In this document: in pieces, positions 10,267 to 26,109 of the stretch
Layout of the letters: every line of letters begins with the position of its first letter
How positions within the stretch are numbered: the first letter of the stretch is position 1
Assembly: GCA_016930435.1 (NCBI GenBank)
Contig: JAFGGQ010000096.1
Location: 2,662 to 66,661 of the forward strand
DNA: 64,000 bases
Origin: a bacterium
GTDB taxonomy: Bacteria; UBP14; UBA6098; JAFGQG01
Direction of reading: 5' to 3'
Notes under the pieces: generated by a model
What the model saw: the letters and a program-made list of their open reading frames with translations, nothing else
What the model was told of the DNA's origin: nothing
The model's database searches: none
Translations under genes and position numbers: made by a program

Positions 10267-11553
10267 ATGAAAAAAATATTTAAGATTACCATACTGGTAG
10301 CCCTATTTGCATTGCTCGGCGCTGGTTGTGGTAAAGCCCCTTCGGCTTCTGTAGAACCCCTGAACTGGGATTTCGGCAGTGTATTGCCACGCACAGAGGC
10401 GGAACAGACCATCTCCCTGGAGAATACCGGGGAAGCCACCCTCAATCTTGATAGCCTTACTACCTCTACCTCATCTCTAAGGGTACTGGAATCACCCCAG
10501 GCCATTTTGCCCCTGGAAAAAAAATACCTGAAAATCGAATTTAAAGCTCCCGCAGATACCGGAAGCTTCGCGGAAACACTCTATATCTTTACTGACGACC
10601 CCCAAAAAAAACGGATACCAATAATCGTTTTTGGCGAGGTACTTGCCGGAAAACTCACCCCGGATAACCAGAAAATTGTCCTGATCCCTACTCAGACTAC
10701 CTCCAAGCTGGAGGAAGATATCCTTTTTGTGCAAGCCCTTACAAAACAGCTGCTGATCGAGCTGGATTCCCGTGATGACCTGCAACTGGTACCCGCTGAC
10801 GAGATAATCAAGGGGCTTACACAGGATCCCCAGTATATGCAGAGAGAAACCCACGAATTATTTCGTAAATGGGCAAATATTCTGGGTATCAGGTTTGTGC
10901 TATTTACCCAATTGGAAAGGACAAACAGCGAACTTTACGTAATCCTTAATTTGACAGATGGTTATTTCAAGTACCCGATTGCCCGGAAGATCCCCTTCAA
11001 AGGCGACCCTGATCCGGGATTGATCACTGCAACCTTCAAGCAGCTCTATGCCAACCTTGGGGGCGAACAGCAGAAGATTATGCAGATGGCCCTGCAGAAG
11101 GAGTGGATGGATAAGCGATCTGCTCTTCTTAATAAACCCGCTCCCGATTTTAAGCTAATAGACATTCGGGAGAAAAAAATGGTGCGGCTTAAGGATTTTC
11201 TCGGGAAAACCGTGGTACTCCACTTTTTCAGTCTGGAATGCGATGCCTGCGAAAAGGAAATGGTCTGGATGGAACGAATAATGAACTCAGGGGATAACGT
11301 GATAGTACTTGGGATATGCATAGATATCGGGCTTAAGGAAGAGGTGCTCCGGTTCATTGCGGACAAGGATATCTCCTATCCTGTTCTGCTTCCAATGAGC
11401 GCTGATGAGGATGGACAATTGGAGCCCTATTACGGTGGCGGAACACCGATAACGGTGGTTATCGACAAGACGGGTACGGTGAGGGAATCCCTGGTTGGAT
11501 TTTCCCAGAAGGGTCTGGACGCGATCGAAAAAATGGTGAAGGAACTCAATTAG
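10267..11553 (+). CDS. lipoprotein with DUF1573-like N-terminal domain and C-terminal TlpA/redoxin-like thioredoxin domain
   Basis: Lipobox LLGAGCGK; C-terminal ...VVLHFFSLECDACEKEM... (CxxC in thioredoxin-fold context) ...GGGTPITVVIDKTGTV. Confidence 0.7.
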   Translation: MKKIFKITILVALFALLGAGCGKAPSASVEPLNWDFGSVLPRTEAEQTISLENTGEATLNLDSLTTSTSSLRVLESPQAILPLEKKYLKIEFKAPADTGSFAETLYIFTDDPQKKRIPIIVFGEVLAGKLTPDNQKIVLIPTQTTSKLEEDILFVQALTKQLLIELDSRDDLQLVPADEIIKGLTQDPQYMQRETHELFRKWANILGIRFVLFTQLERTNSELYVILNLTDGYFKYPIARKIPFKGDPDPGLITATFKQLYANLGGEQQKIMQMALQKEWMDKRSALLNKPAPDFKLIDIREKKMVRLKDFLGKTVVLHFFSLECDACEKEMVWMERIMNSGDNVIVLGICIDIGLKEEVLRFIADKDISYPVLLPMSADEDGQLEPYYGGGTPITVVIDKTGTVRESLVGFSQKGLDAIEKMVKELN

Positions 11554-11574: not shown

Positions 11575-11946
11575 ATGGCTATGGCAAAACGAAAGATTCA
11601 CATATACTGGCTTCAGTTCCTTGTATTGGCGATCTGGGTAGGGGTAATGGAGGTAATTATACCCGCCGGATTTTACCCGGAATTAAAACGCTTTATCATC
11701 AATTTCCTGGTGGTTATGACCGGGATTCTGGCCTTTGAGCCGATAGCCGCGTACGTTTGGAAATATGTTGTGGTTTCCCTTGTGGCCAGCATGCTAATCG
11801 AGGCACTGCGCAAGGTGGGCATCTGGTATATGAGGAGCGGGATTTCCCTTCATCGTATCGGCGGCCCGGTACTTACCCTCCTGGTCATTACTATTGTGGC
11901 GTTCATGATTGCCCGGGCCCTGCAAAAAGATAAATTTAAGGTATGA
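11575..11946 (+). CDS. hypothetical small membrane protein
   Basis: 123 aa, 3-4 predicted TM helices, follows TlpA-like gene on same strand. Confidence 0.4.
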   Translation: MAMAKRKIHIYWLQFLVLAIWVGVMEVIIPAGFYPELKRFIINFLVVMTGILAFEPIAAYVWKYVVVSLVASMLIEALRKVGIWYMRSGISLHRIGGPVLTLLVITIVAFMIARALQKDKFKV

Positions 11947-12018
11947 AACTTATAATATACGATATAAACCGTTGATACCAGCGGTTTTTCAGGGGAACCA
12001 AAAAAATTATTTTTTTCC

Positions 12019-12046
12019 TTGCCAAAGCGTTATTTTTTTATAAAAT
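12019..12046 (+). promoter_or_regulatory. candidate sigma70-type promoter of groES-groEL (TTGCCA-N16-TAAAAT)
   Basis: Hexamers read directly; about 75 nt upstream of groES ATG; no CIRCE inverted repeat recognisable. Confidence 0.35.
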
Positions 12047-12121
12047 TATATGGCTTTATTAAAATGGACTACTATTCATACTTAGCAACATTATAAACTA
12101 TTTAAACTTAAGGAGGGATAA

Positions 12122-12409
12122 ATGAAGATAAAACCCTTATCTGACCGCATTCTGGTAAAACCCAAAGAGGTGGAAGAGGTGAAGAAGGGAGGTATAATCA
12201 TCCCTGATACTGCCAAGGAAAAGCCTCAGGAGGGTTTGGTTATCGAGGTCGGTACTGGTCGAATTACAGATGATGGGAAATCCGTCCCGATAAGCGTAAA
12301 AAAGGGCGATAAAGTACTCTACGGAAAGTATTCAGGTACCGAGATCACCATCGATGAAGAAGAATACCTGATAATGCGCGAGAGTGACATTCTGGCGATT
12401 GTGGGTTAA
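12122..12409 (+). CDS. groS: co-chaperonin GroES
   Basis: 95 aa, [14 protein letters not shown]...[16 protein letters not shown]...; SD AAGGAGGG 6 nt upstream. Confidence 0.95.
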
Positions 12410-12446
12410 TAACTGTATTCAAGGAATATTAAGGAGGTTGAAGTAA

Positions 12447-14066
<1,620 letters not shown>

Positions 14067-14082
14067 TCCTGATTACAATACT

Positions 14083-14116
14083 GATACTTATGCGCCCCCT
14101 TCGGTCTTGCCGGAGG
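14083..14116 (+). terminator. intrinsic terminator of groESL
   Basis: 12-bp GC-rich stem (CGCCCCCTTCGG / CCGGAGGGGGCG), 5-nt loop, followed by TTTCT, 17 nt after groEL stop. Confidence 0.7.
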
Positions 14117-14130
14117 GGGCGTTTCTATTA

Positions 14131-14450
14131 CCTGTATTCAGCGTTAACTGTAAAAAAACAATGGCGAAACCTCCTAAGTTTGTTGTAAACCAAGCTTTAG
14201 AAAAACATCATCAAACAAGGAGGTTTCACCTAAATTGTGAAAATAAAATGTGAAATACCAGATAAAAAAGTAATCGAAATTTTATTAGTGAAAAGATAAA
14301 GAAGAATTTAGGCCAAAGTATTTATTATTATTATTCTAATTCAAATAGGTTAACTAATTATTTTTAGATACTTACTTCGTATTATTCTGTCTTTCTAAAG
14401 TCTCTGAGTATCAGGTTTACCTCGCCGCCTTACCGAAATTCTATGAATTA
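14131..14450 (+). repeat. noncoding dispersed element Rep-A, copy 1 (core 14131-14311; weaker similarity continues to about 14450)
   Basis: About 80% identical to 32138-32490; contains long hairpin with arms GAAACCTCCT (14165-14174) and AGGAGGTTTC (14217-14226), i.e. an anti-SD-like and an SD-like arm; the spurious ORF 13951..14253 lies on top of it. Confidence 0.6.
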
Positions 14451-14470
14451 AATAATATAATGATCAACGC

Positions 14471-14512
14471 GGATTACGCGCGGCTATAAGCCGTCGCCTG
14501 CAACCCGTTGTT
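14471..14512 (-). repeat. about 42-nt structured element R, copy A (immediately 3' of GNAT gene)
   Basis: cgcgcgGCTATAAGCCGTCGCCTGCAACCCGTTGTT aligns with 15330-15371 (about 33/42 identical); imperfect hairpin CGGCT-tat-AGCCG extended by GCG/CGC with a bulged A. Confidence 0.5.
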
Positions 14513-14518
14513 ATGTGC

Positions 14519-15283
14519 CTATCGCTTGCCGACGATTTTATCGAACCGACTCTCCATGCATACGCTTATGTCTGTAGTGATGAACTTCCCATCCAAGAAA
14601 AGGCTGAATATCGTTGCCGGAGATGGACACATCTGAGCCTCTTCCATGGTTTCGAGCTTAATTGCTTTGAGCGAAAGACCCCGATTCTTAGCAGTCTCAA
14701 CGAGTGAGTTCTCTACGTGGTATTCGGAATACGGGCAACGGTTTGAATAATAGACAACAATACCGTTTTGATCCGGGCATGTGCCGCTTCGCACCGATTG
14801 GTTGAAATAGGGTTGGGCGACTGATGACTCAAAGTCAATGGATATGAGACTGAAACCCGACGGTACACTCTCAATTACCTCAAACCCTTGCCTCAGCAAC
14901 CATTTCGTATCACTCATGAAATGGTATTTCTTCGTGCCTACAACGGTCACAAGACCACTTTTGCCCTGGTTCTTTGCTGCTTCAATTGCCTCGTTTAGCA
15001 AGGCTTTGCCATGGCCGTGGCCTTTGAACTTCCCGGAAACCCAAAAACACCCGATCATTATATAATTCGGTGCCGTTACTGGAACCCAGGATTTTTCAGC
15101 CGGGCCATACTCGATAAACACTTTTGCCCGTTCATCAAGTCGGCGAAACACGTATCCGTTTTCAAATTGCGCTCTGAGCCATTGTTTCTTTAGCTCGTAG
15201 CTCTTAGCACATTTCTTGTCGGAAAAGGCACAACAAATGTGTTCATCCTTGATGTTCTCTTTTGTTAACGTCACATACGTCAT
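14519..15283 (-). CDS. GNAT family N-acetyltransferase with C-terminal YoaP-like domain
   Basis: GNAT core (...IMIGCFWVSGKFKGHGHGKALLNEAIEAA...) followed by Cys-rich YoaP-like C-terminal domain (...GIVVYYSNRCPYSEYHV...). Confidence 0.7.
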   Translation of the reverse strand: MTYVTLTKENIKDEHICCAFSDKKCAKSYELKKQWLRAQFENGYVFRRLDERAKVFIEYGPAEKSWVPVTAPNYIMIGCFWVSGKFKGHGHGKALLNEAIEAAKNQGKSGLVTVVGTKKYHFMSDTKWLLRQGFEVIESVPSGFSLISIDFESSVAQPYFNQSVRSGTCPDQNGIVVYYSNRCPYSEYHVENSLVETAKNRGLSLKAIKLETMEEAQMCPSPATIFSLFLDGKFITTDISVCMESRFDKIVGKR

Positions 15284-15329
15284 TTCTCATCTCCCCTAAC
15301 GTGCCGCCCAAAGCGGGGCGAAGGGTTAA

Positions 15330-15371
15330 GTATCACACGCAGCTATCAGCCGTCGCGTGCATCCGGCTTGT
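15330..15371 (-). repeat. about 42-nt structured element R, copy B (overlaps last 8 codons and stop of DUF1835 gene)
   Basis: cacgcaGCTATCAGCCGTCGCGTGCATCCGGCTTGTT; same hairpin architecture as copy A; followed on the gene strand by ACTTAAC...small hairpin...GTTAGGG just before the GNAT start. Confidence 0.5.
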
Positions 15372-16257
15372 TCGGCAATGCTGTGATTCTGAAGTCCCCA
15401 AGTGACAGTTCACTTTCCCATTGGGGCAATCTATCTGCTGGGCCCTGGATTTGCACGAGTGGAGGCGTACGGCCTGCAAGTCCGTTGATCTTGGCCCACA
15501 ACGTCGTGTCACCCCAGAACTGTGGCGGTGTATCAGCGGATGCAACGGATGCAAGGATGCTGCCAGGCGTTTCGTTACCTTCCCGGATTGCTGTGAGGGC
15601 AAGGCTTTCAAGTCGTCCCAATCCACCTTTCTGGTCGGGTTGTTCCTGTATCCATCGTGCCACGGCGGCGGGAACCCAGGGCAAGGGAGCCTTGATAATC
15701 TCCGACAGTTTTTCGAACAAGGCAGCATCCTGTGTTGCGAATGCCTTATCGACTACCTTGGCGAATCTGAATTGCTCCTCGGTAACAGCGCTTCGCCTGC
15801 CATAGAGCGATGCAAGTTGGTCGGGCCGCAGTTGCCCGAGCCCGTTGAACGGTACTATTCCGGGGAATGTATCTACGCAGATGAGTTCCACGTTGACGGC
15901 GTCCTTTAGGTGCAGGCATGTCATAATATGGGCGAGCATGGACTGGTCAAAAAGGCATGCATCGAACCACAGGACGATATGCTCTCGGGTGGTGGATTCC
16001 GCCAGCCTTCGGTACTGATTCCGCAGTGTCTCAAGAACAAGCTGCTTGTCCAATCCACCTGCGGTAGCTTCTTCCAGAAAGACCGCCCGGGCATTAAGAA
16101 TATCCTCATCAGGCCATCCGGGATGTCGAGGCCCCTCATACATAATGTCGTGCCAAACGAACACTTCCCCGGGAAGCCCGGCCCTTGCAAGGCTTCCTCC
16201 TGCGCTGTCACCACTTGTGATGTGAAGAGTGTTCTCCATTTCTTCCTCAGCCAACAT
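15346..16257 (-). CDS. DUF1835(/DUF3658)-type protein
   Basis: N-terminal LHITSGDSAGGSL motif characteristic of DUF1835; GC and GC3 clearly higher than neighbours; TGA stop. Confidence 0.6.
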   Translation of the reverse strand: MLAEEEMENTLHITSGDSAGGSLARAGLPGEVFVWHDIMYEGPRHPGWPDEDILNARAVFLEEATAGGLDKQLVLETLRNQYRRLAESTTREHIVLWFDACLFDQSMLAHIMTCLHLKDAVNVELICVDTFPGIVPFNGLGQLRPDQLASLYGRRSAVTEEQFRFAKVVDKAFATQDAALFEKLSEIIKAPLPWVPAAVARWIQEQPDQKGGLGRLESLALTAIREGNETPGSILASVASADTPPQFWGDTTLWAKINGLAGRTPPLVQIQGPADRLPQWESELSLGDFRITALPNKPDARDG

Positions 16258-16413
16258 CTCCGAGTATCACTTGCCTCGAAGGCTTTCGGAAATTAGTTGC
16301 TCTTGTTACTGACATTAAATATCTCATATCTTGCCATATTTGTTTATCATAAAATACCATTGTTGTCAATGTGGAAACTCTGGTTAGAAGGCAATTATAG
16401 CAATGTTATGAAT

Positions 16414-16764
16414 TCAATTACCATAGTTCAAGTAATCTTCCAAAACAAATATTTCTATCTCTTTAATTGACTTAAGATTCCTATCGTTTGTAATAAAAAG
16501 ACTAGCACTGTTTTCGATACACGTAGCAATTTGTATTGCATCAGGGGTTCATACCCCATATTGTGCCCTGATTTCCGCAGCCTTCTCTGCAATAATCGGG
16601 TCAATTGAGAAAATGACAAAATTAGCTGAATTAAGAAGAAAATGTTTGTATTTTTCTACTAGCTTCGTTCTAGATTGTCTCAGAGGCAGTGAAAGAACTT
16701 CTAACAAAGTAATTACTGATGAAAAGGCAAGATAATTGGAATCATCCTTTATTATTTTTCCCAA
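16414..16764 (-). pseudogene. PIN-domain (VapC-like) toxin gene interrupted by in-frame TGA at 16546-16548
   Basis: TTG start overlapping antitoxin stop; N-part ...FSIDPIIAEKAAEIRAQYGV then TGA, then same frame continues TPDAIQIATCIENSASLFITNDRNLKSIKEIEIFVLEDYLNYGN (canonical PIN C-terminus); TGA is used as a genuine stop elsewhere in the window (e.g. 26171, 15346). Confidence 0.6.
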
Positions 16765-16867
16765 TGACTATTGATATTTCCGAAATTAATTTTGAAAAAA
16801 GAACTAGTTTTTCATTATCGTTAAGTTTTGATATCTTTTTATAGATTGTTTCAGTTGCATTGTTCAT
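16742..16867 (-). CDS. DUF2281-like antitoxin (41 aa)
   Basis: MNNATETIYKKISKLNDNEKLVLFSKLISEISIVIGKNNKG; stop overlaps start of the PIN gene (GATGA junction); not in ORF track (too short). Confidence 0.5.
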   Translation of the reverse strand: MNNATETIYKKISKLNDNEKLVLFSKLISEISIVIGKNNKG

Positions 16868-16920
16868 ATTAAATCATCTCCGATTTTATCCCGAAGTCTA
16901 TATTCTTTGAACGGAAAGAC

Positions 16921-18426
16921 TTATCTTAATAGAATTACTTTCTGGGTAGTCTCATACTGGTTTACCCGGAAGTAGCAAAAGTATATCCCGGAGCCAAATT
17001 CCGGTGTAGCTTCCCACTTTAACTTGTAATTCCCGGGCAGTAGATATTCCAGTGGGTAAGATTTGGCCACCCTACCGGAAAGGTCGTAGAAAATCCTCTT
17101 TACCCAGGAGCCGCGGGTGATCTGGTAGTCAATGGAAACATTGGAATTAAACGGATTGGGATAAGCGTTGATATTTATGATCAGTATTTCCCGATTAATA
17201 GCACCGGGGATGTATTCATCGGCGCCAATGTCCCAACCCCTTCCGAAAGGCCTGGTGTCCCCCTCAATATCGATATATGGGGCCATCAATGTATCACCCC
17301 AGGGGGAAAAAATGTATTGGGATCCGGTGTTTATACAGCGCGAGCTGTCAGAGAGATGATAGAGAGTATCCCGGAAATAGGGATCCGTTCGAAAAATTCC
17401 CCGCTCCCAGATAAAAATACCCGCAAAGGTTTCCCGAAAACACTTGGTGCTGTCCAGATTAGTATGACTGACGTAAACTGTGCATGGATATACATTCTCA
17501 CCGTAAGCATAATAGCGAAGATAGATTTCGTCACCCCGTAAAGCCTGATTCCCCCACATTATGTTATTGAAGCTTTCAATATTCACCTTCTGGTAACAAT
17601 AAACAGCGCCTCCCACTGAATCGGCGCAATTGTCGGCGATGGTATTATTGATCATGGTTGGATAGCAGTTCCATTCACAAGAAATTCCCCCGCCCGATTT
17701 TACCGAATGATTTGATACTATCATATTATTTACAATCCGGGCAGAAGACCTGTAGCATGCGATCCCACCGCCATCTTTGGAAGCCGTGCTATGAGCGATG
17801 TAATTATCTGAGATCACCGGATCGCACTGATTACGGCAACAGATAGCCCCGCCTTCCCCATTATCAGCAACGTTAAAATAGAATCGGCAGCCTTTTATAA
17901 TTGGACTCGATAGATTTAAACAACAGATAGCCCCACCCTTGTCCGCATAGCAATTTCTGAAAGTGCAGTTGATGATAGAGGGGCTGCTCTCATAGCAGTA
18001 GATAGCCCCTCCGAAACGCTCTGTAGATGTCCCAAGGGCATTCCCGTACTCGAAATCGCAGTAAACAAGGCTGCAGAGTTCGGCATTCCGTTCAAAACGG
18101 ATACCCTGAAACCCGCCACTGGTATCGGTTAATACGGTATCCTCCACCTTGAAAAGGATGTGCTCCCAATAGGTACCCTGTGCGTTTATCACCGCTTCAT
18201 CCCTGACCAGTATCCTGTAATGCCCCCGGAAAATTACTTCCACACCCGGCCCTATATTCAGTGTGCTGTCGTTTGGAATGGCTAAATCCCCAATAACCAC
18301 GTAGGGAGAACCGGGAGCCTCCCATTGCCCTGAAACATTACCCGTTACAAAGGTGCTGTCCCCATAAAGGAAATTTATTGAGAAAAAAATGGCTATAATT
18401 AAAATTAACCATCCCTTTTTATTCAT
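16921..18426 (-). CDS. right-handed parallel beta-helix repeat protein with T9SS C-terminal sorting domain
   Basis: Signal peptide; repeated GGAIYC/GGAICC beta-helix rungs; C-terminal ...AYPNPFNSNVSIDYQI...GIYFCYF... Por-type CTD. Confidence 0.75.
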   Translation of the reverse strand: MNKKGWLILIIAIFFSINFLYGDSTFVTGNVSGQWEAPGSPYVVIGDLAIPNDSTLNIGPGVEVIFRGHYRILVRDEAVINAQGTYWEHILFKVEDTVLTDTSGGFQGIRFERNAELCSLVYCDFEYGNALGTSTERFGGAIYCYESSPSIINCTFRNCYADKGGAICCLNLSSPIIKGCRFYFNVADNGEGGAICCRNQCDPVISDNYIAHSTASKDGGGIACYRSSARIVNNMIVSNHSVKSGGGISCEWNCYPTMINNTIADNCADSVGGAVYCYQKVNIESFNNIMWGNQALRGDEIYLRYYAYGENVYPCTVYVSHTNLDSTKCFRETFAGIFIWERGIFRTDPYFRDTLYHLSDSSRCINTGSQYIFSPWGDTLMAPYIDIEGDTRPFGRGWDIGADEYIPGAINREILIININAYPNPFNSNVSIDYQITRGSWVKRIFYDLSGRVAKSYPLEYLLPGNYKLKWEATPEFGSGIYFCYFRVNQYETTQKVILLR

Positions 18427-18628
18427 AAAGAACGCCCCTTTCCGGCTAAATCATCATTAACTTCACAAACAACAAAGGAATACTTCTCTATTTATGTTAT
18501 ATCATAATATAAATATAAAGAAAACGCAATAAAAAAAGTATATTTATTATTTTGGAGAGCCTAACCCTGAAAAGAGCTTCATAGATTTTTGGAAACCAGC
18601 AGCCTTTTTACCTGAGGATTTCAGGAAC

Positions 18629-19834
18629 CTACAGGTTATCCGCTAAAACCTTGACAATATTTTCTCTATTTGTTAAACTATTATTAAGAATAATGGCGAA
18701 GCACAGGGTTTTCCCGAGATTGCTTGAATCGAAATAACCGGCCAGGGTATTCACATTGTTGAGGGTTCCGGTCTTTGCGTAGATCCCTTCATTCATGGGA
18801 AGCAGCTCCCTGTAGGGGAAGAAGGATCGCAGGAGAGTACACATCTGGAGGGCGGTTATCTGGTTCTGACGGGAAATACCGGATCCCTCGGTAATGGAAA
18901 AGGTTTCATCTTGAAATTTCTCGCGGAGGTATTCAGTAAGGGCATCCGTCCCCTTGCGCAGTGTAGCCGGGGGACCGTATTTCCGGGCGCCGAGGTAAAG
19001 TAAAAGCTGGTTAGCTATGAGATTGTTGGAATATTTAAAGAGACCCTGCAATACATCCTCCAGATCTTTCGATGATTCATGAACATAAAAGACACTTAGG
19101 TATTCAGGCACTTTCCGTTTCTGTATCCCGCCTTGAAATCTAATTCCATTCTGTTTGAATATCGCCTGTAGCAATTCCCCCGCGTATTTAAGCTGTAGTT
19201 CGGTGTCCGAAGCCAAATTGATCCTGAAAGTACCCTTTTTCCCCTGTGCCAGGGCTAACCTTTCCGCGGTATCGGTCAGGGGGGTTTGCTCCTCGGCGCT
19301 GCTCACCTTGTTTACGGAGGAGACGGATACAAAGATTGTATTGAAATTGACCAGCAAAGCCCCGTTCAGGGCATCATAGGGATTGAGACTATGTGAAATG
19401 CCGGGGATCACGATATGCGGTGCAAAGTAAGTATCATCCAGAAAGAGACCATTAAGCGGCTTCTCCTCTAGCAGGGGTGCTATTTCCTGGGCTATCAGGG
19501 AAATTTCCTCGGAGACAAAGTAAGGATCGCCATAACCTTTGACATAGAGGTTTCGAAGGCTGTCCAGATAAAATTGGGTTGGAAATCTAAATTGCGTGGA
19601 ACCGATTTCATGGATAAAAGCCTCAGCAGTGGCTATTTTCAGGATTGAGGCAGGTACCAGGAGTTTGTTTTCCCGAAGGGAATACAGGATGTTCCCATCC
19701 AGGTCGGTGACGCATACAGCGCCATCTCCGGCTAATTTCTCTACCTGGTTTTCCCATTCTTCCCGGCCGTTTGATCGACCCCAAAAAAGAAAAAGAAAGA
19801 TAAGGGCTGTAAGCAGCCTAAAGCAGTTTAACAT
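18629..19834 (-). CDS. D-alanyl-D-alanine carboxypeptidase/endopeptidase (PBP4/S13-like serine hydrolase)
   Basis: Signal peptide; SxxK active-site motif (PASILKIATA); overall PBP4-like length and composition. Confidence 0.7.
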   Translation of the reverse strand: MLNCFRLLTALIFLFLFWGRSNGREEWENQVEKLAGDGAVCVTDLDGNILYSLRENKLLVPASILKIATAEAFIHEIGSTQFRFPTQFYLDSLRNLYVKGYGDPYFVSEEISLIAQEIAPLLEEKPLNGLFLDDTYFAPHIVIPGISHSLNPYDALNGALLVNFNTIFVSVSSVNKVSSAEEQTPLTDTAERLALAQGKKGTFRINLASDTELQLKYAGELLQAIFKQNGIRFQGGIQKRKVPEYLSVFYVHESSKDLEDVLQGLFKYSNNLIANQLLLYLGARKYGPPATLRKGTDALTEYLREKFQDETFSITEGSGISRQNQITALQMCTLLRSFFPYRELLPMNEGIYAKTGTLNNVNTLAGYFDSSNLGKTLCFAIILNNSLTNRENIVKVLADNL

Positions 19835-19861
19835 GGAAATTTTTCTGCAATAAATTGACGT

Positions 19862-20734
19862 TTATCTAACCTGGGTCAGTTTATAGCCTTTATCCTGCAG
19901 GAGTTTTATTACCCCTTCTGAGCCGCCCAGATGACCAGCGCCGACCGCAACAAAGACATTGCCTTGCCGGATAAATTTCTCCATTCTGGAAGCCATCACA
20001 TAATTGCGCCGGGTAATCAAATTATCATAAAAATCCTGGTAATCTTCCTCCACCAGTTCCTGGTTCATGAACCTGGTCAGGGCTTCTACATCACCCCGGA
20101 GGTAAAGCTCAATCATCTTTTCCAGGACAACTTCAAACTGCTCGTATTCGTTCACGGACTGTTCCAGCATAATGATCTGTTCCTCCAGGCTAAGCCCGTC
20201 GAAAACGACGATCTGTTCTTTGATGGTTTCCAATCCTCCGGTTTCCTTTTCCATTTCCTGCGCTTTTTTATAAAGCATCTGGTCCATGGGGTCACCCGCA
20301 TCGGGCGGCAGGGCGATAAGACTGAACAATACCCAGGGTTTCAGGCTCTCAAACATCATAATATCCTGCCCCTTCTCCGTGAGAATATCGCTTACCTGTT
20401 GGTAGAGTTCGGGGGTCATCAGATCGCTTAGGGTTTTACCATCCGGGAGGAGCATCAGGGTTCCCAGCTCGGCCATGTTCACATCTCCAAGGTCCACTTC
20501 CATTACATACGCCGAAGCCTCATCGAAAACACGGGTAACCGATTCGGGCAGTTCGGTGACCCTGGGATCGGGCAGATGGATGGTACCGAAAAGGTAGGTT
20601 GGTTTATCTCCATCGATTTTCCATAGCAAAGGACCGGGTTCCCTTGTCAGTTGGCCTTTGGTAGAGCAACCCCCTAAAATCAGCAGTACCAGAAATAACC
20701 AAATTATCCATTTTGGGTATTTTGTTTTTAACAC
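19862..20734 (-). CDS. TraB/GumN family protein
   Basis: Lipoprotein-like N-terminus; C-terminal ...VFVAVGAGHLGGSEGVIKLL... TraB/GumN hallmark. Confidence 0.7.
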   Translation of the reverse strand: MLKTKYPKWIIWLFLVLLILGGCSTKGQLTREPGPLLWKIDGDKPTYLFGTIHLPDPRVTELPESVTRVFDEASAYVMEVDLGDVNMAELGTLMLLPDGKTLSDLMTPELYQQVSDILTEKGQDIMMFESLKPWVLFSLIALPPDAGDPMDQMLYKKAQEMEKETGGLETIKEQIVVFDGLSLEEQIIMLEQSVNEYEQFEVVLEKMIELYLRGDVEALTRFMNQELVEEDYQDFYDNLITRRNYVMASRMEKFIRQGNVFVAVGAGHLGGSEGVIKLLQDKGYKLTQVR

Positions 20735-20777
20735 TATGCCTCCATAAATTTTTTAGAATTTTGATAGAAAAGAACAT

Positions 20778-21428
20778 TTACATTTTCTTGCCGGCATTTC
20801 GCCAATCGGCCAGAAATTTTTCGATGCCTATATCGGTTAGGGGATGTTTGAACATTTGTTTTAGCACCTTGAATGGTATTGTAGCGACATCGGCGCCCAT
20901 CAGGGCGGCCTCCAGTACATGGAGTGGATGGCGTACGCTAGCCACAAGGACTTCAGTTTCAAAAATATAATTATCATAAATAGTGACGATGTCGTTCACG
21001 ATGTCCATTCCCTGGTGGCTGATATCGTCCAGGCGGCCGACGAATGGGGACACGAACCGGGCACCTGCCTTAGCCGCCATCAGGGCCTGAAGCGGCGAAA
21101 AGATCAGGGTCACATTCACCCCGATACCCTCTCCCGAAAGGGTCTTGGTTACCCTCAAGCCATCCGGGGTAAAGGGCACCTTTATAACGATATTGCTGTG
21201 AATACCGGCCAGATCACGGGCCTCCCGGAGCATCCCGTCCACCTCCTCGGAAACTACCTCCGCACTGATTGGACCGTCAACGATCTCCACAATCTGGTTC
21301 AGCAGTTCCTTATAGTCCCTGGACTCTTTGGCTACCAGGGAAGGATTGGTGGTAACGCCATCCAATACTCCCCACGAAGCCGCAGCTTTTATCTGCTCAA
21401 TATTTGCGGTGTCGATAAAAAATTTCAT
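20778..21428 (-). CDS. tal: transaldolase / fructose-6-phosphate aldolase family (short form)
   Basis: [16 protein letters not shown]...GVTTNPSLV...; 216 aa TIM-barrel short transaldolase. Confidence 0.85.
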
Positions 21429-21521
21429 GAAAAATCCTCCCTTCGTTAATTTACCTGGTGACTGAATATATTTATATAAATATTCCGCTATTTTTCAAAG
21501 TCAATAATAATCCACGTATAT

Positions 21522-22250
21522 TCAATAATTAACCTTAACCAGGGTCAAGCCTTGGGGTGGAGCAAATCCGAAATGAACCTTTCGCTCTCCGGTGTACAGT
21601 GTTTCTTCGAACTGCTCAGGGGATATCTTACCCCGGGCAACCTCGATCATTGCTCCGACCAATCCGCGCACAAGACCATGCAAGAAGCGGTCGCCCTCGA
21701 TCTCATAAACTACCGAGTCCTGTTCCAGTATCCAGATCGACCGGTAAATACTGCAGTTCCGATTTTCTTTTTCCCTGATGTTTTTTGCAAAGCCACCCAT
21801 ATCATGTGAACCCGTCATTTTCTGTGCCAGGAGTGGAAGGAGGTCATAATCGATCTTCCACTTTAGGTACCAGCTATAATCACGCAGGAGCGGAAATTTA
21901 GTCAGGTTTATGCTATAGCGGTATAGTTTGCTTAAAGCTGAAAACCGTGCATTGAAGTCTTCCTTCACGTATTCCGCGTTTCGAATAGCGATATCTTCGG
22001 GGAGGAAGGCGTTGAGACGTTGCATCAGATTTATGGGGGAGGTTCGACGTTCGGTGAGGAAGTTTGCTACCTGCCCCTGGGCATGAACGCCTGCATCGGT
22101 GCGCGATGCGCCGGTTAACCTTAGCTGCGTTCCCATAAGCAGCGATAATTTTTCCTCGATAATCCCCTGAACGGTCCTGTGGTGAGGTTGTTTTTGCCAT
22201 CCCTGATAGGCAGCTCCGTCATATTCTATGGTCAATTTAAGGTTATACAT
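21522..22250 (-). CDS. truA: tRNA pseudouridine(38-40) synthase TruA
   Basis: ...LTGASRTDAGVHAQGQVANF... catalytic Asp motif; 242 aa. Confidence 0.9.
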   Translation of the reverse strand: MYNLKLTIEYDGAAYQGWQKQPHHRTVQGIIEEKLSLLMGTQLRLTGASRTDAGVHAQGQVANFLTERRTSPINLMQRLNAFLPEDIAIRNAEYVKEDFNARFSALSKLYRYSINLTKFPLLRDYSWYLKWKIDYDLLPLLAQKMTGSHDMGGFAKNIREKENRNCSIYRSIWILEQDSVVYEIEGDRFLHGLVRGLVGAMIEVARGKISPEQFEETLYTGERKVHFGFAPPQGLTLVKVNY

Positions 22251-22256
22251 TGCGCT

Positions 22257-23051
22257 TTAGAAGGTCATTTTAAAATAAACCAATCCGGTCAGCAAGGATC
22301 CGGTAAGTAAGGTGAGTATCCAGTCGCCGGTATGGTATTTGAGGGGTTTATAATAAGTACGGGGATGGTCGGGGGTGTATGCTCTGACCTCCAGGGCAAG
22401 TGACAGGGTTTCTGCTCTTCTGAAGGATTGAGCAAAGAGGGGGATAATCAGGGGGAGCAATGCTTTGATGCGCTTGAGCAAGCCCCCTCCAAACCGTGCT
22501 CCCCGGGCCAACTGGGCCTTGCGGGTGTTCTCAATCTCATCTATCATGGTAGGGATGAACCGGAGGGCGATCATCATCATCAGGGTAAAATTGCGGACCG
22601 GTATCCCCCTTCTGTTAAGGGGCTCCAGAAACCTTTCCAGGGCATTTGTAAATTCGATGGGTTGCGTAGTCCAGGTTAAAAGCGCTCCGGAAAATACCAG
22701 TAGAAACAGACGCAGAGAAAACAGCAACCCGTTCCAGGCACCCTCCAGTGAAACGGAGAACCAGTGCCATTGATAACCCCCTTCTGCCGGTGTAAATATG
22801 AGATGCACTAAAAAGGTTATATAGAAGAACAACCGGAAGGTACGAACCAGGGTCAAAAGATTCACAAGATGCAGTTTCGCCATGATCATCAATATGAAAA
22901 GGACCAATAAACCCGCCAGATGGGTTTCAATACTGTTGAAGAGAATAAAAAAGCTGACTAATACCAGAAAAAACAGGAATTTGCTCCGGGGATCCAGGCG
23001 GTGAATTACGGAATCACGGGGAAGATATTGTCCCAAAGTAAGGTTTCTCAT
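22257..23051 (-). CDS. ecfT: energy-coupling factor transporter transmembrane component EcfT (CbiQ family)
   Basis: Polytopic; conserved ...ARGARFGGG...RIKALLPLIIPLFAQSFRRAETLSLALEVRAY... EcfT C-terminal motif; classic ecfT-truA adjacency. Confidence 0.8.
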   Translation of the reverse strand: MRNLTLGQYLPRDSVIHRLDPRSKFLFFLVLVSFFILFNSIETHLAGLLVLFILMIMAKLHLVNLLTLVRTFRLFFYITFLVHLIFTPAEGGYQWHWFSVSLEGAWNGLLFSLRLFLLVFSGALLTWTTQPIEFTNALERFLEPLNRRGIPVRNFTLMMMIALRFIPTMIDEIENTRKAQLARGARFGGGLLKRIKALLPLIIPLFAQSFRRAETLSLALEVRAYTPDHPRTYYKPLKYHTGDWILTLLTGSLLTGLVYFKMTF

Positions 23052-23298
23052 AGAATTTATCTTAAAAAGGATAAAGTATTCATACTGTTCTTAAGAAACA
23101 AGGAATTTTAAATATATCTTAACTCAACAAATTGCCAACATAATTTTACTGAAATTTAGGTCTGTCAATTTATTATATTTTGGAATCAATACTTTCTTTT
23201 TTAAAAAACTTAGAAAAGTGATATTATGGTTTGTTTTTGTTTATACTCAAATTCCTTCTTTTCTTGACATGCCGGCGGTTTATATTTAATTATTTTTT

Positions 23299-24039
23299 AT
23301 GACCACTTTCGATGAAAGGCGCACACTGGAGGAGCAATTATCCGTTGCCTTGGAGCGTCATCTTTTCAAGAATGACGGTAATCCGTTTTACATTTGCCCG
23401 ACGGGTATTGAATTCGTGCTGGAACATTCTGAAGGGAGGGAGTTTCTCAGTCGATTACGGGGGCATACAGATGCGACCGATCCCACAGGTACCTCATTTA
23501 TTTACTTTCCGGACCGCATTGTGATAGATACGGTAGGCAGGAGGGCTTTCTGGTTGGAGCTGAAGGTAATGAAGCGCAGCCCCCGGGTGAGCACAAAGAT
23601 GATCCTTAAGCGGTCTCATCCCCGGTATGACAATATTCATCCGGAGAAGTGGGTGAAACTTCAGCCCTTCCTGATCCCGGAGTACTGGGGAGTAATTGAG
23701 CGCCGCGCTCTGGATAATTACCGGCGGCTTTGTCGCTCTATTGGTGACCGCTCACTGATGCTGATCGTTTACGCCGACTTTCATCCCCACAGACTGATCG
23801 CTATCTGGGAGCAGGATATGGTCAAGCTTTATGAGCAGGACCGTGAGCTGTTCCCGGACAGTAACCGGGAAAACGTTCAAAGTACCCGTGGTTCGGGAAC
23901 CCCCTGGGCGAATGTATCGCTTGGCAATTTTCTGCCCCTGGAAAGTTTTTTGGTCAAAAATACCGCCAACAAGGAGTACTGGAAAAGAAATCAACCGGGT
24001 GAAAAGATGCGTATGATTTTGGGAGAATTGGGGGGATAG
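23299..24039 (+). CDS. hypothetical protein, possible PD-(D/E)xK nuclease fold
   Basis: ...FIYFPDRIVIDTVGRRAFWLELKVMK... contains hPD...(14 aa)...ELK arrangement; no other recognisable domain. Confidence 0.4.
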   Translation: MTTFDERRTLEEQLSVALERHLFKNDGNPFYICPTGIEFVLEHSEGREFLSRLRGHTDATDPTGTSFIYFPDRIVIDTVGRRAFWLELKVMKRSPRVSTKMILKRSHPRYDNIHPEKWVKLQPFLIPEYWGVIERRALDNYRRLCRSIGDRSLMLIVYADFHPHRLIAIWEQDMVKLYEQDRELFPDSNRENVQSTRGSGTPWANVSLGNFLPLESFLVKNTANKEYWKRNQPGEKMRMILGELGG

Positions 24040-24067
24040 ACCGGACCCCCGCAAGGGAGCCCGGCCA

Positions 24068-24179
24068 CCGTTTAAACCGGTTTAATTTAGCCGAAATTAA
24101 CTATAATGCCTGAAATATCGAAAAACAGGTTCCTCAAATATATAACTCATATTCAACATTATCAACTGCATTTTACGGG
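24068..24179 (+). mobile_element. MITE-like dispersed repeat, family B copy 1
   Basis: Shares CCGTTTAAT...CTATAATGCCTGAAATATCGAAAAACAGG...TTCATCAAATATATAACTCATATTCAACATTATCAACTGCATTTTACGGG with 29884-29986 and 49318-49499; imperfect terminal inverted repeats CCCGTTTAAT / ATTTTACGGG. Confidence 0.55.
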
Positions 24180-24186
24180 TAAAAAG

Positions 24187-26109
24187 CTACTTCAATAGGA
24201 CCATCTTCCGGTTGAGCGTCCCGCCGGCTGACTCCAGCCTGTAAAAATAAATACCTCCTGTAACATCGTTCCCGGATTGATCCAGGCCATCCCAGAGTAT
24301 CTCGCCATTATAATTTTTGAGGTCGAACATACGCACGGTCTGACCATCGATTGCGTAAATGGTCAGCTTGCCGTCCTGAAACCGGGGATGTTCATAGATG
24401 ATCCGTGTAGCGGCATTGAATGGGTTGGGAACATTATAGAGCAGGCTATAATCAGAGGGTAATGCTGCCCTTTCTCCAATAGTCTCCATGCTCAGGTCGC
24501 ATTCAGCTGCCTGCCAGATGAGATAATTGTTATCATCCTGGATAAATGCTACGATGATTATTTCATCCTCATCCCAGGCGGATTCAATCGTAAAGCTAAA
24601 CTCATATTCCCGGGATTCGTCCCGAACCAGGTCCAGCTCCGTTCCCTCGAAATCGGTTACCACGTCGCGAACTGTATGATATAAATGGGTTTGGGGAACA
24701 TCGCCAGGATTCCAGCTATAGGCTATCTCACTCTCGATCACTGCCAACCGGAGAAACTGGTTATTCAGGGCCGGCGGATCATTGTCCATCGTGACGTTAA
24801 CCGTAAAATGGACGTCTCTGCCCTCGATGGAATTCACCGAAAGGTTGAGCATATAAGGACTGCTTAGTTCCTGTATATCCCGGAAAGCCCCTAAGTACTG
24901 GGGATAGCCGTAATCGTATGATTCGGGGTATCCGCCGCTGAACTCTATTATCCCGTTTACCCATACATCGGGGTAGCCGGAGACATCGTAGTAGTCTGCA
25001 GCCGGCACGGCATCAATCAGGTAATATGGATCTGAACCGAAAGACAGGGTGGTATGGTAAACAATTATTATCACTGAATCCTCCAGGTCTTCATAAAGCA
25101 TGTGCAGTCCTTCGGATGCCCGTGGGCAATAATAGCATCCCACCGCAGTAAATTCCTGGAAGATGGGTTGCATGTAATTGGTATATGCATACAGAGAGAC
25201 CTGCTGGGTATCGTTACCCGCAAATTCATCTGTTGTCAGATCCGTGAATGCTTTAATCTCGTATGCATCACCGGGATTGGCCATGAAACTGGCGAATTCA
25301 ACACTTCTTGAAGCCCCCGGGGCTAATGCGGAAATAGTCTGTGTATCAGCCATCACAACCGTTCCGAACCTTTCCACCAGGCAGATCACATCGAATGTCT
25401 CGGTATTTATCCCGGGATTCATGAATACCGCCTCCGGGGCGAGGTATTCACCAGGGCTGATAAAAATATCATCGTATATGATCTCATTGCAGGATACATC
25501 ATGATCCAATGGAACCATGATGGCAACGTCGTCGATATACCAAACATCGCCGTCGGCGCCTTCATATTTAAAAGCCACATAGATGGTGCCTGAATGCCCG
25601 GTGATAGTTATAGGAGGAACCGGGTTCCATTCGTAATCAGAGAAGGTATCGATCTCGGCAATCTCTACAAAATCACCGTCTCCGGGGTTCCCGGAACCGT
25701 CAGACACCCACACTCCATGATAACGGTAATCAAATGTATAGAGAGTGTACTGGAAAAAGTTCAGAATAGGATTTATTCCCAACGGAACGGTCAGTGGAGG
25801 TGAAACCAACCATCCTTCAAGATTGGAGATATTCCAATTGTGAACATAGGAATAATCGCCCGTATTCGCTTCGTAGTTAGTAGGTTCCCATTCCACGGCA
25901 GTAGCGCCAAGGACATAAACACTCCAGTCATCACGCTCAGATGCAGTCTCAAAACTGGTGATATAAGGCAGGGTTTCATCGAGAGGAGCAAAACTACGAT
26001 CTGGTTCAGGATGGTTAACCAGGCTGCTTGAACCCACCGTAAGCTTATCGGCCCATAACAAGCCGACCAGGAATATTACAATTACCATCACAAAAATCAG
26101 CTTTTTCAT
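24187..26109 (-). CDS. secreted hypothetical protein with T9SS C-terminal sorting domain
   Basis: Start chosen at MKKLIFVMV (AAGGAG 8 nt upstream) rather than ORF-track 26154; C-terminal ...YNVPNPFNAATRIIYE...GGIYFYRL... CTD. Confidence 0.6.
   Translation of the reverse strand: MKKLIFVMVIVIFLVGLLWADKLTVGSSSLVNHPEPDRSFAPLDETLPYITSFETASERDDWSVYVLGATAVEWEPTNYEANTGDYSYVHNWNISNLEGWLVSPPLTVPLGINPILNFFQYTLYTFDYRYHGVWVSDGSGNPGDGDFVEIAEIDTFSDYEWNPVPPITITGHSGTIYVAFKYEGADGDVWYIDDVAIMVPLDHDVSCNEIIYDDIFISPGEYLAPEAVFMNPGINTETFDVICLVERFGTVVMADTQTISALAPGASRSVEFASFMANPGDAYEIKAFTDLTTDEFAGNDTQQVSLYAYTNYMQPIFQEFTAVGCYYCPRASEGLHMLYEDLEDSVIIIVYHTTLSFGSDPYYLIDAVPAADYYDVSGYPDVWVNGIIEFSGGYPESYDYGYPQYLGAFRDIQELSSPYMLNLSVNSIEGRDVHFTVNVTMDNDPPALNNQFLRLAVIESEIAYSWNPGDVPQTHLYHTVRDVVTDFEGTELDLVRDESREYEFSFTIESAWDEDEIIIVAFIQDDNNYLIWQAAECDLSMETIGERAALPSDYSLLYNVPNPFNAATRIIYEHPRFQDGKLTIYAIDGQTVRMFDLKNYNGEILWDGLDQSGNDVTGGIYFYRLESAGGTLNRKMVLLK

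What the first reader, a model, noticed from the sequence alone, without database searches (positions are those of the whole stretch)
14461..16920. GC-rich three-cassette islet after the groEL terminator, with a conserved structured element after each gene (weak attC-like resemblance)
Three minus-strand genes are wedged between the groEL terminator and a T9SS cargo gene, separated from both by very AT-rich spacers. They are GNAT-YoaP, DUF1835 and a DUF2281-PIN toxin-antitoxin pair. The DUF1835 gene is clearly GC- and GC3-richer than its surroundings. The GNAT and DUF1835 genes each end in a related element of about 42 nt (14471-14512 and 15330-15371, about 33/42 identical). Both copies fold into the same imperfect hairpin with a bulged A. 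Two stop codons are each followed 3 nt later by CATAACA (after GNAT and after PIN). The DUF1835-to-GNAT junction reads ACTTAAC, then a 5-bp hairpin, then GTTAGGG, then ATG. The ACTTAAC-hairpin-GTTAGGG pair fits the RYYYAAC / GTTRRRY consensus only loosely, while CATAACA fits it only at the TAAC core, and at 38-55 nt these units are shorter than canonical attC sites, so the cassette-like reading is speculative. GTGATACT also occurs at both junctions flanking the DUF1835 gene. No integrase is present, so at most this would be an attC cluster lacking an integron-integrase (CALIN-like), or a different site-specific recombination scar.
Basis: partly seen in the sequence, partly recalled or inferred. 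Interest (0 to 1): 0.6.

Follow-up and report, generated by a model that had tools for sequence, protein, structure and literature searches.

The report
Two decayed integron cassettes, no integrase
Two accessory genes next to groEL are old integron gene cassettes that still carry worn-down copies of their recombination sites but have no integrase nearby, which is a common, already described kind of genomic leftover.

Summary
The GNAT-YoaP and DUF1835 genes are integron-type gene cassettes. Each is followed, on its own strand, by an attC-family site of about 60 nt: 14455-14516 and 15317-15376.

- An attC covariance model built from class 1 resistance cassettes and unrelated environmental attCs gives its best window hit on the DUF1835 site (18.2 bits, E=0.025).
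- A model built from the sites that follow DUF1835 homologues in 17 other genomes hits both sites (E=2.7e-12 and 3e-5).
- Homologues of both genes recur in other genomes, bounded by GTT R' boxes and followed by canonical attCs.

Both window sites are degenerate. The DUF1835 site has CTTCGCC where GTTCGGC is expected. The GNAT site has a 3' arm with non-standard spacing.

No integrase lies in the 64 kb window. The closest relative (GroEL 86%) has neither gene after groEL. This fits a small two-site cluster of attC sites lacking an integrase (CALIN), probably fossil.

The PIN pseudogene is not shown to be a cassette. A 45-nt direct repeat (S1/S2) flanking the two cassettes remains unexplained.

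The parts
14519..15283 (-). GNAT-YoaP acetyltransferase gene, the cargo of cassette 2.
   Evidence: It matches Pfam YoaP (2.6e-17) and Acetyltransf_1. Homologues at 58-85% identity in metagenomes are preceded by GTTATG[CGT] and followed by (G/A)CATAAC plus canonical attCs.
14455..14516 (-). Degenerate attC of the GNAT cassette. R'' is ACATAAC (14510-14516). L'' is GTT[G]CAGGC followed by GAC. The loop stem is GGCTTATAGCC. The R' candidates are GTTGATC (14462-14468) and ATTATAT (14455-14461).
   Evidence: Model R2 scores it 27.9 bits, E=3e-5, full length, with 5 non-standard pairs. The generic attC model R1 gives only a 4.3-bit partial hit. It folds into a hairpin with a bulged A. Compared by eye with the L020-type site, its 3' arm has non-standard spacing: about 3 nt short if R' is GTTGATC, or a 4-nt insertion if R' is ATTATAT.
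15294..15300 (-). GTTAGGG, the R' box at the 5' boundary of the GNAT cassette. It lies 10 nt before the ATG.
   Evidence: GNAT homologues carry GTTATGC, GTTATGT or GTTATGG 18-45 nt upstream of the start codon.
15317..15376 (-). attC of the DUF1835 cassette, 60 nt. R'' is GCCGAAC (15370-15376; the Pro-Asn codons of the ORF's Leu-Pro-Asn motif plus the last base of the Leu codon). L'' is GGAT[G]CACGC followed by GAC. The spacer is TTAACC. R' is CTTCGCC (15317-15323), mutated from the expected GTTCGGC. The site overlaps the last 10 codons of the ORF.
   Evidence: Model R1 scores it 18.2 bits, E=0.025, its best hit in the window. Model R2 scores it 53.7 bits, E=2.7e-12. Homologous sites in other genomes score 22-43 bits with R1. 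Covariation supports the stem.
15346..16239 (-). DUF1835 gene, the cargo of cassette 1. The start is taken as the ATG at 16237-16239, which matches the 297-aa NCBI protein.
   Evidence: It matches Pfam DUF1835. Homologues at 63-87% identity occur in Verrucomicrobiota, Desulfobacterota, Lentisphaerae, Aminicenantes and other groups. GC is 55.6%.
16249..16255 (-). GTTGGCT, the R' box at the 5' boundary of the DUF1835 cassette. It is followed by GAGGAAGAA and then ATG.
   Evidence: Homologues have GTTCGGC/GTTCTGC + AGGAGAA + ATG at the same place. This box is the complement of the cassette's own R'' GCCGAAC.
15301..15316 (-). A 16-nt filler (CCGCTTTGGGCGGCAC) between the two R'-like boxes.
   Evidence: Read from the sequence and its fold. 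That it is a remnant of a lost attC or cassette is inference.
16247..16304 (-). S1, a direct repeat that abuts the 5' boundary of the DUF1835 cassette.
   Evidence: It is about 80% identical to S2 over about 45 nt. No other copy occurs in the window or the fetched loci.
14391..14448 (-). S2, the second copy of the direct repeat. It starts about 6-20 nt downstream of the GNAT attC, depending on which R' box is taken.
   Evidence: It is not hit by either attC model.
16411..16867 (-). PIN toxin pseudogene plus a 41-aa upstream ORF. It is AT-rich, and its link to the cassettes is unproven.
   Evidence: PIN matches in two pieces split by an in-frame TGA at 16549-16551. GC is 33%. No attC model hit lies 3' of it.

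Best explanation
The GNAT-YoaP and DUF1835 genes are two integron-type gene cassettes lying head to tail on the minus strand. Each consists of a promoterless ORF that starts a few bases after a GTT R' box and ends in its own attC recombination site.

In an active integron, an integron integrase binds the folded bottom strand of the attC and cuts at the conserved G|TT. It uses this to excise the cassette as a circle and reinsert it. That mechanism is established knowledge of the family and was not shown here.

No integrase is present in the window, so the pair is a two-site cluster of attC sites lacking an integrase (CALIN). Two origins are possible:
- the pair was inserted as a two-cassette circle at a secondary genomic G|WT site, or
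- it was left behind when an array was broken up.

The locus sits at a synteny breakpoint next to groESL. Both attCs have since decayed. The DUF1835 site has lost the invariant G of its R' box, and the GNAT site has a 3' arm with non-standard spacing. The pair is therefore probably no longer mobilisable, or at best moves as one fused unit (inference). The genes appear intact as open reading frames, and their expression was not tested.
For: **1. A generic attC model finds the DUF1835 site.**
- Model R1 was built from 13 attCs of class 1 resistance cassettes and 6 environmental attCs unrelated to the R repeat.
- Run unfiltered on the whole window, its best hit is full-length at 15317-15376(-), 18.2 bits, E=0.025. 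This lies directly at the end of the DUF1835 ORF.

**2. The same model finds the homologous sites elsewhere.**
- R1 scores the homologous 3' sites of DUF1835 genes in 7 other genomes at 22-43 bits.
- It also finds co-oriented multi-site arrays around them.
- 34 of its 36 hits lie on the gene's strand.

**3. The structure is supported by covariation.**
- Across 17 homologous sites, 73.5% of cells are paired, against 25-43% when partners are slid.
- The covariation score is 0.185, against at most 0.069 for slid versions. 0 of 500 shuffles reached it.
- There are compensatory changes at two L-box pairs.

**4. A family model finds both window sites.**
- Model R2 was built from those 17 foreign sites.
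- It hits both window elements and nothing else significant: E=2.7e-12 and E=3e-5.

**5. The cassette boundaries match.**
- DUF1835 homologues start at G|TTCGGC-AGGAGAA-ATG and end at GCCGAAC...GTTCGGC.
- GNAT-YoaP homologues start after GTTATG[CGT] and are followed by (G/A)CATAAC plus R1-positive attCs in 5 loci.
- The window keeps diverged versions of all four boundary boxes.

**6. The DUF1835 gene looks horizontally acquired.**
- Its closest relatives (86-87% identity) are in Verrucomicrobiota.
- The host's GroEL is nearest to Zixibacteria-like bacteria.
- DUF1835 GC is about 4 sd above neighbouring genes.

**7. The nearest relative lacks the islet.**
- The closest relative (GroEL 86%) has groEL followed directly by cbiQ-truA-tal-traB-S13.
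- In the window that block is inverted, with the islet and the T9SS gene at the junction.

**8. No integrase is present.**
- tblastn with IntI1 found no integron integrase or other tyrosine recombinase in the 64 kb window.
- The query was confirmed 100% identical to plasmid IntI1.
Against: - The generic model R1 detects only one of the two sites, and at a borderline E-value from a shortened calibration.
- The GNAT site passes only the family-specific model R2, with 5 non-standard pairs. Its R' box is ambiguous (GTTGATC or ATTATAT).
- The DUF1835 site has C instead of the invariant G of GTT.
- IntegronFinder's own model could not be run.
- Folding energies alone are not significant.
- No integrase was seen within 10 kb of any of the 85 DUF1835-homologue loci either. 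The link to integrons therefore rests on attC architecture and arrays, not on a linked intI.
- The S1/S2 direct repeat flanking the pair is not predicted by attC x attC or attC x attG recombination.
- Only one relative, at 86% GroEL identity, was available for synteny.
Confidence: 0.8

Rival explanations
1. The cluster is still an active substrate. The two sites, or the pair as one fused cassette bounded by GTTGGCT and the GNAT attC, can still be excised by an integron integrase encoded elsewhere in the genome. On this reading it is a functional reservoir rather than a fossil.
For: - The R'' boxes and the L''/L' stems are largely intact in both sites.
- GTTGATC after the GNAT attC and GTTGGCT before DUF1835 keep the G|TT.
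- CALINs are proposed to be mobilisable in trans (PMC4889954, read).
- Both ORFs are intact.
Against: - The R' of the DUF1835 site reads CTT.
- The GNAT site has non-standard spacing and fails the generic model.
- No integrase lies in the 64 kb window.
- The rest of the genome could not be examined.
Confidence: 0.2
2. The islet was delivered by a different site-specific or homology-driven event that used the 45-nt S sequence, leaving S1 and S2 as attL/attR-like direct repeats. On this reading the attC sites are only passengers from an earlier integron life.
For: - S1 and S2 flank exactly the two-cassette segment.
- They are about 80% identical over about 45 nt and occur nowhere else in the window or the loci.
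- 0 of 100 shuffles gave two matches.
- S1 ends exactly at the DUF1835 cassette boundary.
Against: - The islet and the window contain no recombinase.
- The longest identical stretch is only 8 nt (TGATACTC).
- A simpler reading is that the cassettes were inserted at a G|TT between two units of a pre-existing tandem repeat.
- The similarity does not extend beyond S.
Confidence: 0.1
3. The R elements have nothing to do with integrons. They are gene-end hairpins, such as terminator-like or REP-like elements, and merely resemble attC.
For: - Both sit just after, or across, stop codons.
- There are only two copies in the window.
- No integrase was found near any homologue.
- The generic-model E-value is borderline.
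Against: - Neither hairpin is followed by a T-run.
- The elements travel with their genes across phyla and end at GTT boxes that are complementary to the R'' box.
- A model trained mainly on clinical resistance-cassette attCs recognises the family at up to 43 bits and finds co-oriented arrays around it.
- The layout is canonical: R'' box, 5-nt spacer, L'' box with an extrahelical base, then GAC.
Confidence: 0.05

Closest known systems
[quoted passage not shown] 2016, PMC4889954; IntegronFinder 2)
   Same: - There are two co-oriented attC-family sites 860 nt apart, each 3' of a small accessory ORF.
- No intI lies within more than 10 kb.
- The cargo is not antibiotic resistance.
- The cluster is small. 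According to Loot et al., 1362 of 2961 CALINs have only two cassettes (bioRxiv 10.1101/2022.09.11.507474).
   Different: - Both sites are degenerate, and only one passes a generic attC model here.
- Whether IntegronFinder itself would call two sites is untested.
- The host is an unclassified bacterium near Zixibacteria rather than a proteobacterium.
Cassettes inserted at genomic attG sites, giving SALINs and small CALINs (Loot et al., bioRxiv 10.1101/2022.09.11.507474)
   Same: - The cassettes are isolated in a chromosome, away from any integron platform.
- Both outer junctions read G|TT (GATG|TTGGCT and GCG|TTGATC), which is compatible with the 5'-GWT-3' target.
- The locus is intergenic, next to an essential operon.
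   Different: - No empty-site allele is available to prove an insertion.
- The flanking S1/S2 repeat is not a feature of attG insertion.
Fused or decayed cassettes in mobile and sedentary integrons (from my own knowledge of the cassette literature, not read here)
   Same: Loss of the internal R' box (CTT in place of GTT) would tie DUF1835 and GNAT into one unit.
   Different: Fusion here is inferred from the sequence only.

Membership tests
attC recombination site | Terminal inverted core boxes: R'' RYYYAAC and R' GTTRRRY, with the invariant AAC and GTT. | tested here: inconclusive
   - DUF1835 site: R'' GCCGAAC is acceptable. R' is CTTCGCC, so the invariant G is lost.
- GNAT site: R'' ACATAAC is acceptable. 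R' is either GTTGATC with a spacer that is too short, or ATTATAT with a spacer that is too long.
- Intact homologues in other genomes meet the feature fully, for example L020 GCCGAAC...GTTCGGC.
attC recombination site | Inner L''/L' boxes that pair with an extrahelical base, separated from the R boxes by an unpaired spacer of about 5-6 nt, plus a variable terminal stem-loop. | tested here: met
   - DUF1835 site: a 5-nt spacer, GGAT[G]CACGC pairing with GCGTGTGATAC, and a 6-nt spacer. The model R2 alignment flags no non-standard pair.
- GNAT site: the 5' half is canonical (AACGG, then GTT[G]CAGGC followed by GAC), but the 3' half is imperfect.
- Covariation across 17 homologous sites supports the stem.
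attC recombination site | A significant match to an attC covariance model. | tested here: inconclusive
   - My generic model R1 scores the DUF1835 site 18.2 bits, E=0.025. The GNAT site is not detected.
- The family model R2 detects both sites.
- IntegronFinder's attC_4 model is not available with these tools.
Integron gene cassette | The same ORF plus attC unit is found in unrelated contexts, with homology ending at the G|TT of the R' boxes. | tested here: met
   - DUF1835.
- GNAT-YoaP.
CALIN | At least two attC sites on one strand less than 4 kb apart, with no integron integrase nearby. | tested here: met
   - The two sites are 860 nt apart on the minus strand.
- No IntI or other tyrosine recombinase lies in the window, which extends 14 kb on one side and 47 kb on the other.
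- Caveat: the second site passes only the family-specific model.
Complete integron | An intI gene with an adjacent attI site and Pc promoter upstream of the array. | tested here: not met
   No intI lies in the window. The rest of the genome cannot be tested with these tools.
attC recombination site | Recombination of the folded bottom strand by an integron integrase. | not testable with these tools
   This needs a suicide-conjugation or in vitro recombination assay.

The most novel reading that the evidence does not exclude
The 45-nt S1/S2 direct repeats are not incidental. Either they are the recombination sites of a second, unknown system that moved a fused pair of dead integron cassettes as one module, or they are members of a lineage-specific, non-canonical attC type in this uncultured phylum-level lineage. 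In the first case, cassettes that have lost attC function would have been re-mobilised by a different mechanism.
Probability: 0.08. Interest if true: 0.5.

Novelty: new member of a known kind. Interest (0 to 1): 0.25.

Why it matters
- It adds one example to the already large catalogue of integrase-less cassette clusters.
- It shows that DUF1835 and GNAT-YoaP genes are recurrent integron cassettes spread across several phyla.
- It records cassette decay (loss of an R' box, altered spacing in one arm) in a poorly known lineage near Zixibacteria.
- It does not change how integrons are understood.
- The practical lesson is that weak, by-eye attC resemblances can be settled by comparing the 3' flanks of homologues in other genomes.

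Tried and rejected
- **Rfam scan of 14000-17000:** only chance-level hits, and none to an attC-like family.
- **Rule-based attC finders:** R''/R' and L''/L' complementarity rules, and constrained folding, were barely enriched over shuffled DNA (107 against 63 hits at the strictest setting). I abandoned them for covariance models.
- **RNAalifold on the 17 homologous sites:** it predicted no structure, so I supplied the structure by hand and tested it by pair counts.
- **ACTTAAC-hairpin-GTTAGGG as a 38-nt mini-attC:** rejected. ACTTAAC falls in the spacer of the 60-nt site, and GTTAGGG is the boundary box of the next cassette.
- **PIN as a third cassette:** I considered a long attC running from TTCATAAC to GTTGGCT. 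Neither model hit it.
- **The long hairpin at 14164-14229 as an attC:** model R1 gives only 5.7 bits. It looks like a minus-strand terminator.
- **Extending the S1/S2 homology to the PIN stop region:** not better than shuffles.
- **Synteny through the T9SS protein:** it has no homologue above 40% identity.
- **Exact-protein look-ups:** they returned only 1-2 kb contigs from the same sample.
- **NCBIfam and PADLOC:** no function for either cargo protein.
Full report
**Anatomy**

On the plus strand, groES (12122-12409) and groEL (12447-14066) end in a strong terminator at 14092-14122. A 26%-GC spacer follows. The minus strand then carries:

- GNAT-YoaP (14519-15283)
- DUF1835 (15346-16239/16257)
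- a broken PIN gene (16411-16764, with an in-frame TGA at 16549-16551) and a 41-aa upstream ORF
- a T9SS-sorted beta-helix protein (16921-18426)

Only DUF1835 is compositionally odd: GC is 55.6% against 48.2 +/- 1.9 for other genes, but GC3 is within 1 sd. GNAT is ordinary and the PIN remnant is very AT-rich.

**The observation**

- The R repeat exists.
- There are only two copies in 64 kb, far above chance.
- Both copies fold into a hairpin with a bulged A. The folding energies alone are unremarkable (z -1.3 to -2.0).
S1 (16247-16304) and S2 (14391-14448) are about 80% identical over about 45 nt. They flank the DUF1835-GNAT segment and occur nowhere else.

**Comparative evidence for DUF1835**

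- The protein has more than 1300 relatives. The best 80 genome-collection loci are 63-87% identical and come from Verrucomicrobiota, Desulfobacterota, Lentisphaerae, NC10, Aminicenantes and others.
- The host's GroEL is closest to an unnamed bacterium (86%) and then to Zixibacteria-like sequences (75-78%).
- In many loci the gene is preceded by GTTCGGC or GTTCTGC, then AGGAGAA, then ATG.
- In those loci its Leu-Pro-Asn codons (TTGCCGAAC) begin a hairpin of about 58 nt that ends in GTTCGGC, GTTCAGC or GTTAGGC.
- The 5' box is therefore the reverse complement of the 3' GCCGAAC. This is what a circularisable integron cassette looks like.
- The window keeps a diverged copy of the 5' box: GTTGGCT-GAGGAAGAA-ATG at 16249-16255.

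**Comparative evidence for GNAT-YoaP**

- Homologues from metagenomes (58-85% identity) are preceded by GTTATG[CGT].
- Their stop codon is followed by (G/A)CATAAC and a canonical attC.
- The window has TAG-GC-ACATAAC downstream and GTTAGGG 10 nt upstream of the ATG.

**An independent attC model (R1)**

- I recovered class 1 integron arrays from plasmids using IntI1 as the query. My recalled IntI1 sequence proved 100% identical to the plasmid copies.
- I delineated 13 resistance-cassette attCs: aadA1, aadA2, lnuF, ereA2, aac(6')-Ib4, aac(6')-IIc, psp, dfrB1, oxa2, estX, cmlA1, dfrA27 and dfrA14.
- I added 6 environmental attCs unrelated to the R repeat and built covariance model R1 with the canonical R''/L''/L'/R' pairing. 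An N was inserted into five-base spacers so that the boxes stayed in register.
- Run unfiltered over the whole window, R1's best hit is a full-length match at 15317-15376(-), 18.2 bits, E=0.025.
- That hit reads GCCGAAC-AAGCC-GGAT[G]CACGC-GAC-...-GCGTGTGATAC-TTAACC-CTTCGCC.
- The same model scores the homologous sites after DUF1835 genes in seven other genomes at 22-43 bits.
- It also finds co-oriented arrays in L011, L044, L019, L014, L003 and L038. 34 of its 36 hits lie on the gene's strand, so false positives are rare.
- It hits directly after the stop codon of five GNAT-YoaP homologues.
- In the window, R1 does not detect the GNAT 3' element, S1/S2 or the PIN flank.

**A family model (R2)**

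- I aligned 17 DUF1835-associated sites from other genomes.
- With the structure I supplied, 73.5% of cells pair, against 25-43% when partners are slid. The covariation score is 0.185 against at most 0.069, and 0 of 500 shuffles reached it. There are compensatory changes in the L boxes.
- Model R2, built from these sites, hits the window at 15317-15376 (53.7 bits, E=2.7e-12) and at 14455-14516 (27.9 bits, E=3e-5). The next best hit has E=0.7.
- The two R copies are therefore members of one attC family that behaves as a genuine attC elsewhere.

**State of the sites**

- DUF1835 attC: its R' is CTTCGCC where the family has GTTCGGC. The invariant G at the cleavage point is lost.
- A second R'-like box, GTTAGGG, lies 16 nt further on. 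It is the boundary of the GNAT cassette. The filler between the two boxes may be what remains of a lost cassette or attC (inference).
- GNAT attC: its 5' half is canonical (ACATAAC-AACGG-GTT[G]CAGGC-GAC). Compared by eye with intact relatives, its 3' arm has non-standard spacing before R'. R' is therefore either GTTGATC with too short a spacer, or ATTATAT with too long a spacer.
- I conclude that the sites are degenerate and that the pair is probably fossil or fused.

**Context**

- tblastn found no integron integrase or other tyrosine recombinase in the window, or within 10 kb of any DUF1835 homologue. A motif scan of the window's ORFs agrees.
- In the nearest relative available (GCA_016935765.1), groEL is followed directly by cbiQ-truA-tal-traB-S13.
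- In the window that block is inverted. The islet, the PIN remnant and the T9SS gene sit at the junction.
- This fits acquisition at, or next to, a rearrangement breakpoint. One relative at 86% GroEL identity is thin evidence.

**Comparison with what is known**

- The element matches the published definition of a CALIN: at least two attC sites less than 4 kb apart on one strand, with no integrase (PMC4889954).
- It also fits the recently described route in which IntI inserts cassettes at genomic G|WT sites, producing isolated cassettes and small CALINs (bioRxiv 10.1101/2022.09.11.507474).
- Both outer junctions here read G|TT.
- S1/S2 is not explained by that chemistry. The simplest reading is insertion between two units of a pre-existing repeat. 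A role as recombination sites cannot be excluded.

**Verdict**

This is a real feature whose kind is already known. It is a small, decayed, integrase-less pair of integron cassettes.

Noticed in passing
window 16411-16867 (-): The PIN gene is a pseudogene. An in-frame TGA at 16549-16551 splits the domain (AQYGV*TPDAIQIAT). The first ~28 profile positions, which include the first catalytic Asp, are missing. The upstream 41-aa ORF gives no DUF2281 match.
   Followed up: partly
window 14391-14448 and 16247-16304: A 45-nt imperfect direct repeat (S1/S2, about 80% identical) exactly brackets the two cassettes. It has no other copy in the window or in about 1.5 Mb of fetched loci. Neither attC model recognises it.
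   Followed up: partly
window 14150-14229: On the minus strand, a long imperfect hairpin (GGTGAAACCTCCT...AGGAGGTTTCGCC) is followed by a run of 7 T. It sits back to back with the groEL terminator and looks like the terminator of the minus-strand islet transcript. The simple terminator scan missed it because the loop is long.
   Followed up: no
window 11581-25986 versus L133 (GCA_016935765.1, JAFGQG010000096.1): The order of groESL relative to the cbiQ-truA-tal-traB-S13 block and the h246/Omp28 genes differs by an inversion or transposition between the window and its nearest relative. The islet and the orphan T9SS gene lie at the breakpoint.
   Followed up: partly
window 15349-16239 (-), DUF1835 protein: An AlphaFold model (pLDDT 83.7, pTM 0.74) matches GyrB-GyrA and ParE-ParC cleavage-core fusion chains of type IIA topoisomerases. 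Foldseek gives E down to 1.6e-6 and TM about 0.5 over the query. From the constructs matched, this suggests a Toprim-like domain followed by a winged-helix-like domain. Invariant acidic motifs (SGD, FDACLFDQ) fit that idea. The function of this widely spread cassette protein is unknown.
   Followed up: partly
L001 (Logan SRR13394437, 1021 nt) = window 14349-15369: A unitig from the same sample starts just inside the DUF1835 attC, immediately after the GCCGA of the R'' box. Another (L132) ends inside the PIN gene at about 16612. Assembly-graph breaks at these points might reflect shared attC k-mers or population variants.
   Followed up: no
L002 about 11080-11240, 17850-17960 and 20410-20565: A MITE-like element of about 150 nt with terminal inverted repeats (TAGTGTCCATCCACGAATAGG...) occurs three times, in both orientations, around the cassette region of an unrelated metagenome contig.
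   Followed up: no
L011 4186-9980, L044 90-3888, L019 1212-4543: Co-oriented arrays of 3-6 R1-positive attC sites lie upstream of DUF1835 homologues in Desulfobacterota MAGs, with no integrase within the 10 kb fetched. They are either large CALINs or the distal parts of sedentary integrons.
   Followed up: no
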